This document shows positions 1,225-2,597 of a DNA stretch of 64,000 bases, in pieces. How positions within the stretch are numbered: the stretch's first letter is position 1; every line of letters starts with the position of its first letter. Position numbers and translations under genes: made by a program. The stretch lies in sequence record NC_031047.1. The stretch is one strand, 5' to 3'. A model generated the notes under the pieces. The model saw only the letters and a list, made by a program, of their open reading frames with translations. It was not told where the DNA came from and ran no database searches. The stretch is from Escherichia phage HY03.

Positions 1225-1965
1225 ATGATTAGTGACTCTATGACAGTTGAAGAAATCCGTCTTCATTTGGGGCTTGCATTAAAGGAAAAAGATTTCGTAG
1301 TTGATAAAACTGGCGTTAAAACTATTGAAATTATTGGCGCATCATTTGTAGCAGATGAACCGTTTATTTTTGGCGCTCTTAATGATGAATACATTCAGCG
1401 TGAACTTGAATGGTATAAGTCTCAAAGTCTGTTTGTTAAAGATATTCCAGGTGAAACACCGAAGATTTGGCAGCAGGTAGCATCTTCTAAAGGTGAAATT
1501 AACTCGAATTATGGTTGGGCTATCTGGTCAGAAGATAACTATGCTCAATATGATATGTGTTTAGCTGAACTTGGTCAAAATCCTGATTCTCGACGTGGTA
1601 TCATGATTTATACTCGTCCATCTATGCAGTTTGACTACAATAAAGATGGCATGTCAGATTTCATGTGTACGAATACAGTACAGTACCTGATTCGTGATAA
1701 GAAAGTCAATGCGGTTGTTAGCATGAGAAGCAATGATTGCTGGGCAGGCTATCGTAATGATTATGCTTGGCAAAAATACGTACTAGATAAATTAGTATCT
1801 GATTTGAATGCAGGCGACCCATCGCGGCAATATAAAGCAGGTTCTATTATATGGAACGTTGGAAGTCTTCATGTGTACGAAAATCAGTTTTATTTAGTTG
1901 ACCATTGGTGGAACACCGGTGAGACTCATATTGCTAAAAAGGATTATACTGGAAAATGGAAGTAA
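1225..1965 (+). CDS. 42: dCMP hydroxymethylase (gene 42), thymidylate-synthase-like
   Basis: 246 aa; N-terminus MISDSMTVEEIR and overall sequence match my recollection of T4 gp42; SD GAGG. Confidence 0.9.
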   Translation: MISDSMTVEEIRLHLGLALKEKDFVVDKTGVKTIEIIGASFVADEPFIFGALNDEYIQRELEWYKSQSLFVKDIPGETPKIWQQVASSKGEINSNYGWAIWSEDNYAQYDMCLAELGQNPDSRRGIMIYTRPSMQFDYNKDGMSDFMCTNTVQYLIRDKKVNAVVSMRSNDCWAGYRNDYAWQKYVLDKLVSDLNAGDPSRQYKAGSIIWNVGSLHVYENQFYLVDHWWNTGETHIAKKDYTGKWK

Positions 1966-2597
1966 ATGTGCCGCATGTTTATAAGTATAAACATCCTAAA
2001 ACTAAAAAGTGGTATATAGGAAGTCATGATGGTCACAACCCGAATTATGATGGTTCGGGTGTAGTTTGGCAACATGCTAAAAAGAAATATGGAATAAAAT
2101 CCTTTAATAAAGAAATATTATATGAAGGACCAATGTTTAGACAGGTTGAAGAAATTATTTTAACTTGTTTAGATGCTGCTAATTGTCCGGATTCATATAA
2201 TTTAAAGAATGAAGCATGGGGAGGAAGTTTTCCAGGCAAATTAAATGGAATGTACGGTAAAAAACTATCTCCAGAAGAAAGATATAAGTGCGGAAATGCC
2301 TTTCGTGGAATCAAGCGTCCTGATCATTCTAAAAGAATGAAAGGCGAAGGTAATCCAATGTATGGTAAAAATGAGCAGGCATATGGAATTATAAATCGAG
2401 CCAAGGAAAATTCTGGTAAAACTTATGAAGAAATTTTTGGCGTAGAAAAAGCTAAAATAATTAAAGAAACGATGTCTAAAAATCGTAAAGGAAAACCTCA
2501 TAATTTGATAGAAAAAATATGTCCGCATTGCGGACTAAAAGGACGTGGGCCAAATATGACAAGATACCATTTTGACAAATGTAAGGCACTTAAATGA
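1956..2597 (+). CDS. GIY-YIG (Seg-like) homing endonuclease with NUMOD3 repeats and C-terminal zinc finger
   Basis: VYKY...WYIGSH GIY-YIG variant, NGMYGKK / GNPMYGK NUMOD3-like repeats, CPHCG...HFDKC; overlaps gene 42 end and next gene start. Confidence 0.7.
   Translation: MEVNVPHVYKYKHPKTKKWYIGSHDGHNPNYDGSGVVWQHAKKKYGIKSFNKEILYEGPMFRQVEEIILTCLDAANCPDSYNLKNEAWGGSFPGKLNGMYGKKLSPEERYKCGNAFRGIKRPDHSKRMKGEGNPMYGKNEQAYGIINRAKENSGKTYEEIFGVEKAKIIKETMSKNRKGKPHNLIEKICPHCGLKGRGPNMTRYHFDKCKALK

What the first reader, a model, noticed from the sequence alone, without database searches (positions are those of the whole stretch)
1956..2597. Seg-like GIY-YIG endonuclease gene wedged between gene 42 and the glycosyltransferase, overlapping both
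The ORF starts 10 nt inside the end of gene 42 and its stop overlaps the ATG of the downstream glycosyltransferase (ATGA). It has a GIY-YIG-type N-terminus, NUMOD3-like repeats and a C-terminal Cys4 finger similar to that of the mobE-like protein. From memory, T4 has segA between beta-gt and uvsX rather than an endonuclease here, so this looks like a separate insertion.
Basis: partly seen in the sequence, partly recalled or inferred. Interest (0 to 1): 0.4.

Follow-up and report, generated by a model that had tools for sequence, protein, structure and literature searches.

The report
Seg-like homing endonuclease beside gene 42
A small selfish nuclease gene sits between the dCMP hydroxymethylase gene and the glucosyltransferase gene of this T2/T6-like phage; it is an ordinary kind of element, but it always travels with a variant form of the neighbouring enzyme's active-site loop, which points to where it probably cuts.

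Summary
The ORF at 1956-2597 (+, 213 aa) is real, and both overlaps are as described: 10 nt with gene 42 and ATGA with the glucosyltransferase. It is a free-standing Seg-type GIY-YIG homing endonuclease. The model's top fold match is the I-TevI catalytic domain. Tyr9, Tyr20, Glu65 and Asn82 align with SegA, SegC and I-TevI. Two NUMOD3-like repeats follow, then a C-terminal finger that is CCHC, not Cys4.

It is a 632-bp insert found in 76 of 505 matching phage records, always at this junction. T4, T2, RB32, PST and SG1 lack it; T4 has segA elsewhere. A 70%-identical orthologue occupies the same junction in Klebsiella Jiaodavirus phages. Eight of eight distant relatives lie directly downstream of a thymidylate-synthase-family gene.

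All 44 fixed differences between the 8 carriers and 4 non-carriers compared lie in the last 240 nt of gene 42. The densest patch recodes the loop before Asp179 (VVFGF to CWAGY). The same split recurs in Jiaodavirus. This loop is homologous to the I-TevI homing site in td.

Inferred, not shown: it cuts insert-free gene 42 about 210-230 bp upstream and spreads by intronless homing, as SegF and SegG do. It is a new member of a known kind and has not been characterised experimentally.

The parts
1956..2597 (+). Free-standing homing endonuclease gene (213 aa). An alternative GTG start at 1968 would give M-PHVYKY, closer to the MGYVYKY N-termini of relatives.
   Evidence: ORF. PHROG 314 at 2.3e-31. 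70 homologues. dN/dS 0.07-0.17. N-termini of relatives.
1974..2225 (+). GIY-YIG catalytic domain (aa 7-90) with motifs VYK (Tyr9), WYIG (Tyr20), Glu65 and Asn82.
   Evidence: AF2 model with pLDDT 89 and beta-beta-alpha-beta-alpha topology. Foldseek top hits are I-TevI 1MK0/1LN0, probability 1.00, TM 0.66. Residues invariant with SegA, SegC and I-TevI.
2235..2396 (+). Two NUMOD3-like repeats (aa 94-113 and 125-147), presumed minor-groove DNA-binding linker.
   Evidence: Pfam NUMOD3 at E 0.0027, below threshold. 20 of 33 relatives hit NUMOD3, best 4.5e-10. The NGMYGK and NPMYGK motifs are nearly invariant.
2520..2582 (+). C-terminal CCHC zinc-finger-like beta-beta-alpha module (CPHCGLKGRGPNMTRYHFDKC).
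   Evidence: C189, C192, H205 and C209 are invariant in 33 sequences. Strands 186-188 and 195-197 plus helix 199-208. Motif scan.
1962..2593 (.). The 632-bp insertion relative to insert-free phages. The boundary is ambiguous by 2 nt (1960-2591 or 1962-2593). The empty site reads GAGTGGAA|ATGATTC.
   Evidence: Junction comparison with T2, SG1, PST and RB32. Span of 2212 against 1580 bp.
1225..1965 (+). Gene 42, dCMP hydroxymethylase; the predicted target gene.
   Evidence: PDB 1B49/1B5E at 1.9e-159. Pfam Thymidylat_synt.
1726..1965 (+). Endonuclease-linked tract: gene 42 nt 502-741. It contains all 44 fixed differences between 8 insert-bearing and 4 insert-free Tequatrovirus genomes.
   Evidence: dS against T2 is 1.18 here and 0.20 in nt 1-501. 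85 records carry this allele and 76 carry the endonuclease gene.
1723..1755 (+). Densest patch (gene 42 nt 499-531, codons M167-R177: MRSND-CWAGY-R here, MRSND-VVFGF-R in insert-free phages). Predicted immune version of the cleavage/recognition site. Homologous to the td loop QRSVDVFLG|LPFN that holds the I-TevI homing site.
   Evidence: 17 of the 44 fixed differences lie in nt 502-528. The 33-nt patch 499-531 groups by endonuclease status across genera (88% against 45%) while its flanks group by genus. td exon junction in this window.
1875..1887 (+). Second linked patch (gene 42 codons 219-221, ENQ here and SRH in insert-free phages), in the HxY active-site motif.
2594..3436 (+). Downstream beta-glucosyl-HMC-alpha-glucosyltransferase gene. 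It has no fixed differences linked to the insert.
   Evidence: PHROG 842 at 3.4e-87. Pfam TAGT. Zero fixed differences. Haplotypes shared with insert-free phages.

Best explanation
The ORF encodes a free-standing, Seg-type GIY-YIG homing endonuclease. It consists of a catalytic domain, two NUMOD3-like repeats, a helical segment and a C-terminal CCHC finger.

It has no promoter of its own. It is transcribed on the gene 43-imm-42 message and probably translated at a low level, either by coupling to gene 42 or from a poor initiation site.

Proposed mechanism, as in intronless homing by SegF and SegG: in a mixed infection the enzyme cuts the gene 42 allele of phages that lack the insert. The cut would lie at or near the codons for the active-site loop R168-SND-VVFGF-R177, about 210-230 bp upstream of the insertion point. 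Double-strand-break repair from the carrier genome then copies the 3' 240 nt of gene 42 together with the endonuclease gene into the recipient. Carrier genomes would be immune because their loop is recoded (CWAGY plus synonymous codon switches).

Shown here: the identity, fold and residues of the protein; the sporadic distribution at a fixed site; the strict linkage to the gene 42 tract in the genomes compared, from two genera; and the family-wide position downstream of thymidylate-synthase-family genes.

Inferred only: enzymatic activity, the position of the cut, and immunity of the CWAGY allele.
For: Identity of the protein:
- PHROG 314 scores 2.3e-31.
- The AF2 model has pLDDT 89, and its best PDB matches are the I-TevI catalytic domain (probability 1.0, TM 0.66, rmsd 2.9 A).
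- A family profile also finds I-TevI first (E 0.046).
- 12 of 33 relatives hit PF19835 SegE_GIY-YIG and 6 hit PF01541.
- Y9, Y20, G22, E65 and N82 are invariant with the active enzymes SegA, SegC and I-TevI.
- dN/dS is 0.07-0.17.

Mobility and insertion:
- The insert is in 76 of 505 records, always at the same site; 68 of the 76 copies are at least 99% identical, while the whole 2.2-kb query (gene 42, insert and ba-gt) matches the listed carriers at only 96-99%.
- Among eight carriers chosen to include the most divergent copies, mean pairwise difference is 0.013 in the endonuclease gene against 0.031-0.043 in the neighbouring genes (imm-42.1 region, gene 42 nt 1-500, ba-gt).
- Four of 8 carriers have an insert-free phage as nearest neighbour in the downstream glucosyltransferase.
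- Degenerate copies exist: frameshifted in Roth04, and a 90-nt remnant in vB_KpnM_GF.

Target in gene 42:
- All 44 fixed differences lie in gene 42 nt 502-741; none lie in nt 1-501 or in ba-gt.
- The same allele split recurs in Jiaodavirus. Carriers KP185, KPN6 and Roth04 have CWAGY/QNQ; JD18 and M198 (no insert) and Shark_ER15 (an unrelated HNH gene at this junction) have VVFGY with ERH or SRH.
- The 33-nt patch groups by endonuclease status across genera, while the 60 nt upstream and 39 nt downstream group by genus.
- Eight of 8 distant relatives (44-64% identical) lie immediately downstream of a PF00303 gene, while the downstream gene varies.
- The patch is the positional homologue of the td loop that carries the I-TevI intron in this same window.

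Context:
- The review of T4 endonucleases states that free-standing enzymes cut hundreds to thousands of bp from their own gene, that several are promoter-less, and that five overlap the upstream ORF (PMC2988022).
- No late, MotA-type or sigma-70 promoter signal lies near the ORF.
Against: - No cleavage data exist for this protein or any close relative.
- The I-TevI Arg27 equivalent cannot be aligned. The same is true for the active enzymes SegA and SegC.
- Tight linkage over 240 bp is also what plain physical linkage would give, especially for an 18%-divergent tract that suppresses crossovers.
- The CWAGY/xNQ pairing could instead reflect co-adaptation within the enzyme.
- The CWAGY allele occurs without the endonuclease gene in Moonvirus KM16 and in the recombinants T4_ev151 and ValerieMcCarty02.
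- More distant relatives sit beside LVFGY- or QILGF-type genes, so the immune allele is not universal across the family.
- The allele comparison covers only 8+4 Tequatrovirus and 3+3 Jiaodavirus genomes (the three non-carriers include Shark_ER15, which has an unrelated HNH gene there), plus database-wide counts.
Confidence: 0.6

Rival explanations
1. It is an active homing endonuclease, but it cuts at or next to its own insertion point: the empty 42/glucosyltransferase junction GA(G/A)TGGAAATGATTCA. Immunity would then come simply from the insert disrupting that site. The divergent 240-nt gene 42 tract would be hitch-hiking donor sequence.
For: The empty junction is conserved between Tequatrovirus and Jiaodavirus, and the insert sits at exactly the same point in both. 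The last 30 nt of gene 42 are also densely different between carriers and non-carriers. An unrelated HNH endonuclease gene occupies the same junction in Shark_ER15, which suggests a favoured landing site.
Against: In 8 of 8 distant relatives the downstream gene differs (beta-gt, IMPDH, helicase, NTP-transferase, dCMP deaminase), so the junction is not conserved across the family; only the upstream thymidylate-synthase-family gene is constant. Fixed differences are strictly one-sided, with none even in the first 100 nt of ba-gt. Hitch-hiking does not explain why the segments between the patches have been homogenised to the genus type while the loop patch has not. Characterised free-standing T4 enzymes cut at a distance (PMC2988022).
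Confidence: 0.2
2. The gene is inherited mainly vertically and spread by ordinary recombination, and the protein is inactive or has been put to another use. The two gene 42 allele classes would be old functional haplotypes of the enzyme (loop 172-176 co-adapted with residues 219-221), with the endonuclease gene merely linked to one of them.
For: Between genera the endonuclease gene is as diverged as gene 42 (dS 1.40 in both), so residence at this locus is old, not a recent jump. Both patches lie in active-site motifs of the enzyme. The CWAGY/EKQ allele is native in Moonvirus KM16, which has no insert. T-even phages recombine freely, so mosaic flanks need no homing.
Against: Catalytic residues are intact and purifying selection is strong. 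Diversity in the insert is about 3-fold lower than in its flanks among carriers. Presence is sporadic at 15%, with occasional frameshifted or remnant copies, which is the classic homing-cycle pattern. Co-adaptation explains why patch 1 pairs with patch 2 but not why both stay with the insert in two genera while the intervening sequence is homogenised.
Confidence: 0.15
3. It is an annotation artefact: a chance ORF or a pseudogene.
For: Most records annotate it only as 'hypothetical protein'. Pfam gives no significant hit to this sequence alone.
Against: There are 70 homologues down to 1e-143, a confident fold, conserved motifs and dN/dS well below 1.
Confidence: 0.01

Closest known systems
T4 SegC (and SegA): Seg-type free-standing GIY-YIG endonucleases
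   Same: The N-terminal domain has the same configuration: (V/L)Y..., YIG/YVG, H...GY.GSG, KKYG, Glu and YN. SegC is 35% identical over aa 7-138. A NUMOD3-like repeat follows. The gene is free-standing, lies between conserved genes and is transcribed in their direction.
   Different: The locus differs: SegC lies between 5.1 and 5.4, SegA between b-gt and uvsX. The C-terminus differs: SegC ends in a helix-turn-helix-like segment, while this protein ends in a CCHC finger. T4 has no orthologue of this gene.
T4 SegF and SegG (intronless homing from a distant cleavage site)
   Same: The proposed mechanism is the same: the endonuclease gene lies next to a conserved gene, the cut falls inside that gene a few hundred bp away, the intervening sequence is obligatorily co-converted, and the carrier allele resists cleavage (general description in PMC2988022; exact SegF and SegG distances are recalled from memory). 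The gene is also promoter-less and overlaps the upstream ORF.
   Different: The target gene would be 42, not 56 or 32. Nothing here has been shown biochemically. The domain make-up is not compared in detail.
I-TevI (td intron, present in this window at 53638..54375) and, from memory, I-BmoI
   Same: It has a GIY-YIG catalytic fold. Its homing site lies in the RSxD-xxxGxxxN active-site loop of a thymidylate-synthase-fold enzyme; td exon 1 ends ...QRSVDVFLG and exon 2 starts LPFN. That loop is homologous to the gp42 loop where the endonuclease-linked patch lies.
   Different: I-TevI is intron-encoded, cuts within about 25 bp of its insertion site, has a Cys4 finger in its linker and a helix-turn-helix DNA-binding domain, and carries Arg27. 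This protein is free-standing, lies about 210-230 bp from the suspected site, and has a terminal CCHC finger.
MobE-like HNH endonuclease of this window (57655..58296)
   Same: It has a near-identical C-terminal motif, CPHCGKKVNKGNALRWHYDKC, preceded by NUMOD3. This shows that DNA-binding modules are shuffled between nuclease families.
   Different: Its catalytic domain is HNH, not GIY-YIG. It lies between nrdA and nrdB.

Membership tests
GIY-YIG nuclease superfamily | 'GIY' and 'YIG' tyrosine motifs on the first two beta-strands | tested here: met
   VYK (Tyr9) and WYIG (Tyr20, Gly22) are present. Y20 and G22 are invariant and Y9 is at least 90% conserved in 33 relatives. They align to I-TevI Y6 and Y17.
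GIY-YIG nuclease superfamily | Conserved catalytic Glu (I-TevI E75) and Asn (I-TevI N90) | tested here: met
   E65 and N82 are invariant across this protein, KP185, SegA, SegC, the uvsX-associated endonuclease and I-TevI.
GIY-YIG nuclease superfamily | Conserved Arg after the YIG motif (I-TevI R27) | tested here: inconclusive
   The I-TevI segment that holds R27 aligns to a gap. The active enzymes SegA and SegC lack it in the same way and carry GY.GSG instead.
GIY-YIG nuclease superfamily | Alpha/beta fold of the catalytic domain | tested here: met
   The AF2 model (pLDDT 89) has beta-beta-alpha-beta-alpha order. Foldseek top three hits are 1MK0/1LN0, probability 1.00, TM 0.60-0.66.
GIY-YIG nuclease superfamily | Significant match to the Pfam models PF01541 or PF19835 | tested here: not met
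   This sequence gives no hit at E <= 1. Of 33 relatives, 12 hit PF19835 and 6 hit PF01541, so membership is by transitivity and fold only.
Free-standing (Seg-type) homing endonuclease genes of T4-like phages | Sporadic presence at a fixed intergenic position between conserved genes, same orientation, not inside an intron or intein | tested here: met
   76 of 505 records, always between 42 and ba-gt. The empty site has the two genes overlapping. Jiaodavirus shows the same pattern, with 16 of 155 records.
Free-standing (Seg-type) homing endonuclease genes of T4-like phages | Site-specific double-strand cleavage of the allele that lacks the gene | not testable with these tools
   This needs purified protein and T2-type gene 42 DNA.
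Free-standing (Seg-type) homing endonuclease genes of T4-like phages | Preferential inheritance with co-conversion of flanking markers in mixed infection | tested here: inconclusive
   Only population footprints are available: a one-sided fixed tract in gene 42, lower diversity in the insert, different downstream haplotypes, and recombinants that carry the tract without the gene. No cross was done.
NUMOD3 DNA-binding repeat | Match to PF07460 above the gathering score | tested here: not met
   18.0 bits against a 20.4 cut-off, E 0.0027, for aa 125-138. 20 of 33 relatives pass E 0.01. The repeats are best called 'NUMOD3-like'.
Cys4 zinc finger (as in the I-TevI linker) | Four cysteine ligands | tested here: not met
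   The invariant ligands are C189, C192, H205 and C209, i.e. a CCHC beta-beta-alpha finger. Weak fold resemblance to C2H2 and UBZ fingers.

The most novel reading that the evidence does not exclude
This protein would represent a widespread family of free-standing GIY-YIG endonucleases specialised on thymidylate-synthase-fold genes. The family would recognise the DNA that encodes the same active-site loop (RSxD-xxxGx-xN/D) that the intron-borne I-TevI and I-BmoI recognise in td and thyA. By selecting for uncuttable alleles, it would have maintained two alternative versions of that loop in an essential enzyme (VVFGF/SRH against CWAGY/ENQ) across at least two phage genera. That would be a natural example of a selfish nuclease shaping the active-site sequence of its host's enzyme. 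It would also be a possible evolutionary bridge between free-standing and intron-encoded endonucleases that target one protein fold.
Probability: 0.4. Interest if true: 0.55.

Novelty: new member of a known kind. Interest (0 to 1): 0.4.

Why it matters
The element itself is ordinary. T4-like phages carry many Seg and Mob endonuclease genes, and some database records already label this one 'homing endonuclease'.

It is worth a modest second look because the comparative data give a concrete, cheap-to-test prediction of target and immunity. The predicted sensitive site is about 30 bp of gene 42. Natural controls already exist:
- sensitive alleles: T2 and JD18;
- predicted immune carriers: this phage and KP185;
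- predicted immune non-carriers: T4_ev151 and ValerieMcCarty02.

If confirmed, it would add a characterised free-standing endonuclease whose target is the paralogue-equivalent of the I-TevI site. It would explain localised marker exclusion around gene 42 in crosses among T2/T6-like phages. It would also show a nuclease-driven polymorphism next to catalytic Asp179 of dCMP hydroxymethylase.

For annotation, the ORF should be called a GIY-YIG homing endonuclease. It should not be called 'hypothetical protein', nor 'SegD' as in one record.

Tried and rejected
- Pfam on the single sequence gave only a sub-threshold NUMOD3 hit. phmmer against PDB gave only a spurious ABC-transporter hit. A family alignment and a structure model were needed.
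- No own promoter was found. There is no TATAAATA late promoter within kilobases (nearest at 12785) and no MotA-box/-10 pattern near the ORF. Sigma-70-like sites are at shuffle expectation (10 found against 11.2 expected).
- An RNA hairpin sequestering the ribosome-binding site was not supported: the fold of 1900-2010 has z = -0.8.
- A simple block transfer of the gene 42 tract from Jiaodavirus was rejected. Only patches are shared; the segments between them are genus-typical. The endonuclease gene itself is as diverged between genera as gene 42.
- A third-genus replicate using Yersinia phage MHG19 (insert between 42 and a T4-type beta-gt, CWAGF/ENQ allele) was not possible, because the collection holds no close insert-free relative.
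- Three literature searches found no paper that describes this endonuclease.
- The minus-strand terminator-like hairpin at 2521-2535 is probably a by-product of the near-palindromic CPHCG-coding sequence.
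Full report
**1. Observation**

The window comes from a T2/T6-like Tequatrovirus. Bases 1-6500 match Escherichia phage ELT1 at 98% over their full length, and 656 phage records match in part.

The ORF at 1956..2597 (+, ATG, 213 aa) is present. Upstream is gene 42 (1225..1965), confirmed as dCMP hydroxymethylase by a 1.9e-159 match to PDB 1B49/1B5E. The two ORFs overlap by 10 nt. The endonuclease stop TGA (2595-2597) overlaps the ATG at 2594 of a 280-aa beta-glucosyl-HMC-alpha-glucosyltransferase (PHROG 842, 3.4e-87).

**2. What the protein is**

*Sequence searches.* Pfam on the single sequence shows only a sub-threshold NUMOD3 hit (18 bits against a 20.4 cut-off). 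PHROG 314 'homing endonuclease' matches at 2.3e-31 over the whole length. A database search returned 70 homologues, most of them 209-230 aa and 44-71% identical.

*Family alignment (33 sequences).*
- Invariant: Y20, G22, G33, G46, G89, C189, C192, R203, H205, F206 and C209.
- At least 90% conserved: Y9, Y31, S34, G35, K44, Y81, N82 and the NGM/NPM motifs.
- 12 members hit PF19835 (SegE_GIY-YIG), 6 hit PF01541 (GIY-YIG) and 20 hit NUMOD3.
- A profile of the family finds the I-TevI catalytic domain as its best PDB match, at a marginal E of 0.046.

*Structure.* An AlphaFold model built on the alignment is confident (pLDDT 89) and has the beta-beta-alpha-beta-alpha order of the GIY-YIG fold. Its three best PDB matches are I-TevI 1MK0 and 1LN0 (probability 1.00, TM 0.60-0.66, rmsd about 3 A).

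*Catalytic residues.* Aligned with T4 SegA, T4 SegC, I-TevI and the second GIY-YIG ORF of the window, the residues Y9, Y20, G22, E65 and N82 are invariant. The I-TevI Arg27 segment is missing, exactly as it is in the biochemically active SegA and SegC. The nearest T4 protein is SegC, 35% identical over aa 7-138.

*C-terminal half.* It differs from SegC. Two NUMOD3-like repeats and a helical segment are followed by an invariant C-x2-C-x12-H-x3-C module predicted as beta-beta-alpha. This is a CCHC finger, not Cys4. The same motif ends the mobE-like HNH ORF (57655..58296) and occurs twice in the I-TevIII-like ORF (59120..59929).

*Selection.* dN/dS is 0.17 against the Klebsiella-phage orthologue and 0.02-0.24 among Tequatrovirus copies, so the protein is under purifying selection.

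**3. It is an insertion, not a core gene**

- T4 has the order 42, b-gt, segA, uvsX, with only a 23-nt spacer between 42 and b-gt.
- In T2, SG1, PST and RB32 the gene 42 stop overlaps the glucosyltransferase ATG, read as GAGTGGAAATGATTC.
- The carrier form differs by a 632-bp insert whose ends are ambiguous by 2 nt.
- Of 505 phage records that match the 42-to-ba-gt interval, 76 contain the insert, always at this point.
- 68 of the 76 copies are at least 99% identical to the window, while the whole 2.2-kb query (gene 42, insert and ba-gt) matches the listed carriers at only 96-99%.
- A few copies are 1 nt longer or shorter, or lack 3 nt.
- Among eight carriers chosen to include the most divergent copies, mean pairwise difference is 0.013 in the insert and 0.019 in the adjacent gene 42 tract. 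It is 0.031-0.043 in the neighbouring genes (imm-42.1 region, gene 42 nt 1-500, ba-gt).
- In the downstream glucosyltransferase, four of the eight carriers have an insert-free phage as nearest neighbour: window and ELT1 with SG1, PE37 with T2, and fPS-2 with PST. The insert therefore sits on several backgrounds.

**4. The linked tract in gene 42**

I compared 8 carriers with 4 non-carriers. Every position at which the two groups share no base, 44 in all, lies in gene 42 nt 502-741 (window 1726-1965). None lies in nt 1-501 or anywhere in ba-gt.

- Against T2, dS is 1.18 in this tract and 0.20 in the rest of the gene.
- The densest cluster (17 fixed differences in nt 502-528) recodes M-R-S-N-D-V-V-F-G-F-R as M-R-S-N-D-C-W-A-G-Y-R. 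It includes Arg and Ser codon-family switches (CGC to AGA, TCA to AGC).
- These are residues 172-176, three residues before Asp179. Entry 6L18 carries Asn at that position (RNNYAW in place of RNDYAW); that Asp179 is the catalytic residue is recalled from the T4 dCMP hydroxymethylase literature.
- A second patch changes Y-S-R-H to Y-E-N-Q in the H216-x-Y218 motif.
- Database-wide, 85 records carry this allele at 90% identity or more, against 76 that carry the insert. One exception that was examined, T4_ev151, is a recombinant with the carrier-type loop and ENQ but a non-carrier 3' end and an empty junction.

**5. Independent replicate in a second genus**

Klebsiella Jiaodavirus phages carry a 70%-identical orthologue at the same 42/glucosyltransferase junction, in 16 of 155 records.

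| Genome class | Examples | gp42 loop / second patch |
|---|---|---|
| Carriers | KP185, KPN6, Roth04 (frameshifted) | CWAGY / QNQ |
| No insert | JD18, M198 | VVFGY / ERH |
| Unrelated HNH endonuclease at the junction | Shark_ER15 | VVFGY / SRH |
| 90-nt remnant of the gene | vB_KpnM_GF | CWAGY |
| Empty-junction recombinant | ValerieMcCarty02 | CWAGY |

The 33-nt patch (nt 499-531) groups by endonuclease status across genera. Carrier Tequatrovirus against carrier Jiaodavirus is 88% identical, carrier against non-carrier within Tequatrovirus is 45%, and non-carriers across genera are 76-82%. The 60 nt upstream and 39 nt downstream of the patch group by genus: 90-100% within a genus regardless of status and 62-80% between Tequatrovirus and Jiaodavirus.

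The endonuclease gene is as diverged between the genera as gene 42 (dS 1.40 for both). The association is therefore old and is not a recent block transfer.

**6. Family-wide context**

I looked up the genomic contexts of eight distant relatives (44-64% identical). All eight lie immediately downstream of, and on the same strand as, a Pfam PF00303 thymidylate-synthase-family gene. The gene on the other side varies: a T4-type beta-glucosyltransferase, IMPDH, a helicase, an NTP-transferase, dCMP deaminase, or unknown ORFs.

Yersinia phage MHG19 (64% identical) has the insert between 42 and a T4-type b-gt, and its gp42 is of the CWAGF/ENQ type. More distant relatives sit beside VWAGY-, LVFGY- or QILGF-type genes.

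The constant partner is therefore the thymidylate-synthase-fold gene, not the glucosyltransferase.

**7. Parallel with I-TevI in the same window**

The td gene of this window is interrupted exactly as in T4. Exon 1 (52958..53509) ends ...[10 protein letters not shown], the intron encodes I-TevI (53638..54375), and exon 2 begins LPFNIASY.

The gp42 loop R-S-N-D-V-V-F-G-F-R-N-D is the positional homologue of the td loop [12 protein letters not shown]. That td loop holds the intron insertion site and hence the I-TevI homing site. The endonuclease-linked patch in gene 42 thus lies in the same structural element that an intron-borne GIY-YIG enzyme targets in the paralogous gene.

**8. Expression**

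No T4 late promoter (TATAAATA), MotA-box middle promoter or above-chance sigma-70 site lies near the ORF. An RBS-masking hairpin is not supported (z = -0.8). An AGGA lies 12 nt upstream of the ATG. A GTG at 1968 preceded by GGAAG is an alternative start.

This matches the review's description of T4 free-standing endonucleases: several are promoter-less cassettes, five overlap the upstream ORF, and half have no recognisable initiation region (PMC2988022).

**9. Mechanism and degree of support**

- **Endonuclease identity.** I take it as well supported (about 0.9) that this is a functional free-standing GIY-YIG homing endonuclease gene.
- **Target gene.** That it targets gene 42 and not the glucosyltransferase is likely (about 0.75). 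The grounds are the family-wide context and the strictly one-sided tract.
- **Cut position.** That the cut lies at the 172-176 loop, about 210-230 bp from the insertion, with CWAGY as the immune allele, is an inference (about 0.5-0.6). It rests on three points:
  - The allele split is replicated across two genera.
  - The patch persists while its surroundings are homogenised.
  - Free-standing T4 enzymes cut hundreds of bp away and obligatorily co-convert the interval (PMC2988022; SegF and SegG specifics are from memory).
- **Alternatives.** The rivals are a cut at the junction itself, or co-adapted enzyme haplotypes that are merely linked to the insert.

**10. Comparison and novelty**

This is a new member of the Seg-type free-standing GIY-YIG endonucleases. 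It is not an orthologue of any of the seven T4 seg genes, and T4 lacks it.

Some GenBank records already call it 'homing endonuclease' or 'site-specific intron-like DNA endonuclease', and one mislabels it SegD. I found no paper that describes it.

Three things appear to be new: the predicted target and immune allele, the family's constant association with thymidylate-synthase-fold genes, and the parallel with the I-TevI site. They are modestly interesting and directly testable.

Noticed in passing
window 3514-5999: uvsX is split. ORF 3514..4443 is the RecA-like N-part and ends in a Hint/intein N-terminal block. ORF 4487..5209 is a separate 240-aa GIY-YIG/NUMOD3/NUMOD1 endonuclease. ORF 5352..5999 starts with an intein C-terminal splicing block (…VTHN|T) followed by the UvsX C-domain. 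It looks like a split-intein or 'fractured gene' arrangement with a free-standing endonuclease between the halves. It is rare: only 7 of 656 records cover at least 80% of window 1-6500, ELT1 among them.
   Followed up: partly
window 52958-54834: td carries the group I intron with a full-length I-TevI ORF (53638..54375, 245 aa). Exon 1 ends QRSVDVFLG and exon 2 starts LPFNIASY.
   Followed up: partly
window 57655-60567: A mobE-like HNH/NUMOD3 ORF (57655..58296) lies between nrdA and nrdB. nrdB appears interrupted: an ORF covering its N-terminal part (58293..58970) and one covering its C-terminal part (60034..60567) flank a 269-aa HNH ORF (59120..59929). From memory, that ORF resembles full-length I-TevIII as in RB3, not the truncated T4 form. 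A late-promoter match TATAAATA lies at 59082 just upstream. Both proteins carry the same CCHC finger motif as the endonuclease studied here.
   Followed up: partly
L023 1026-1556 (Klebsiella phage vB_KpnM_Shark_ER15); also PMBT63 and phiA85 by span: An unrelated HNH endonuclease gene (176 aa) occupies exactly the same 42/glucosyltransferase junction in some Jiaodavirus phages, on a VVFGY-type gene 42. The junction may therefore be a shared landing site for two nuclease families.
   Followed up: partly
L004-L007, gene 42 nt 501-737: Among the four insert-free phages (T2, SG1, PST, RB32), the last third of gene 42 is almost invariant (mean pairwise difference 0.002) while the first two thirds differ by 0.043. 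This is unexplained. It may reflect a sweep, a constraint or the small sample.
   Followed up: no
L017 (Escherichia phage T4_ev151) and L020 (Klebsiella phage ValerieMcCarty02): These are natural or laboratory recombinants that carry the endonuclease-linked CWAGY/xNQ gene 42 allele with a non-carrier 3' end and an empty junction. They are ready-made controls for whether the loop or the junction is the target.
   Followed up: yes
window 2628-2648: A terminator-like GC hairpin (TAGGGGCAGTTTCTGCCCTTA followed by ATATGTTT) lies about 35 nt inside the glucosyltransferase coding region. It is present in both carriers and non-carriers and is annotated as a terminator in fPS-2 and DalCa.
   Followed up: no
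L018 (Salmonella phage KM16, Moonvirus) 2003-3570: This Moonvirus gp42 natively has the CWAGY/EKQ loop type with no endonuclease gene at the junction. The 'immune-type' allele is therefore the resident form in at least one other genus.
   Followed up: partly
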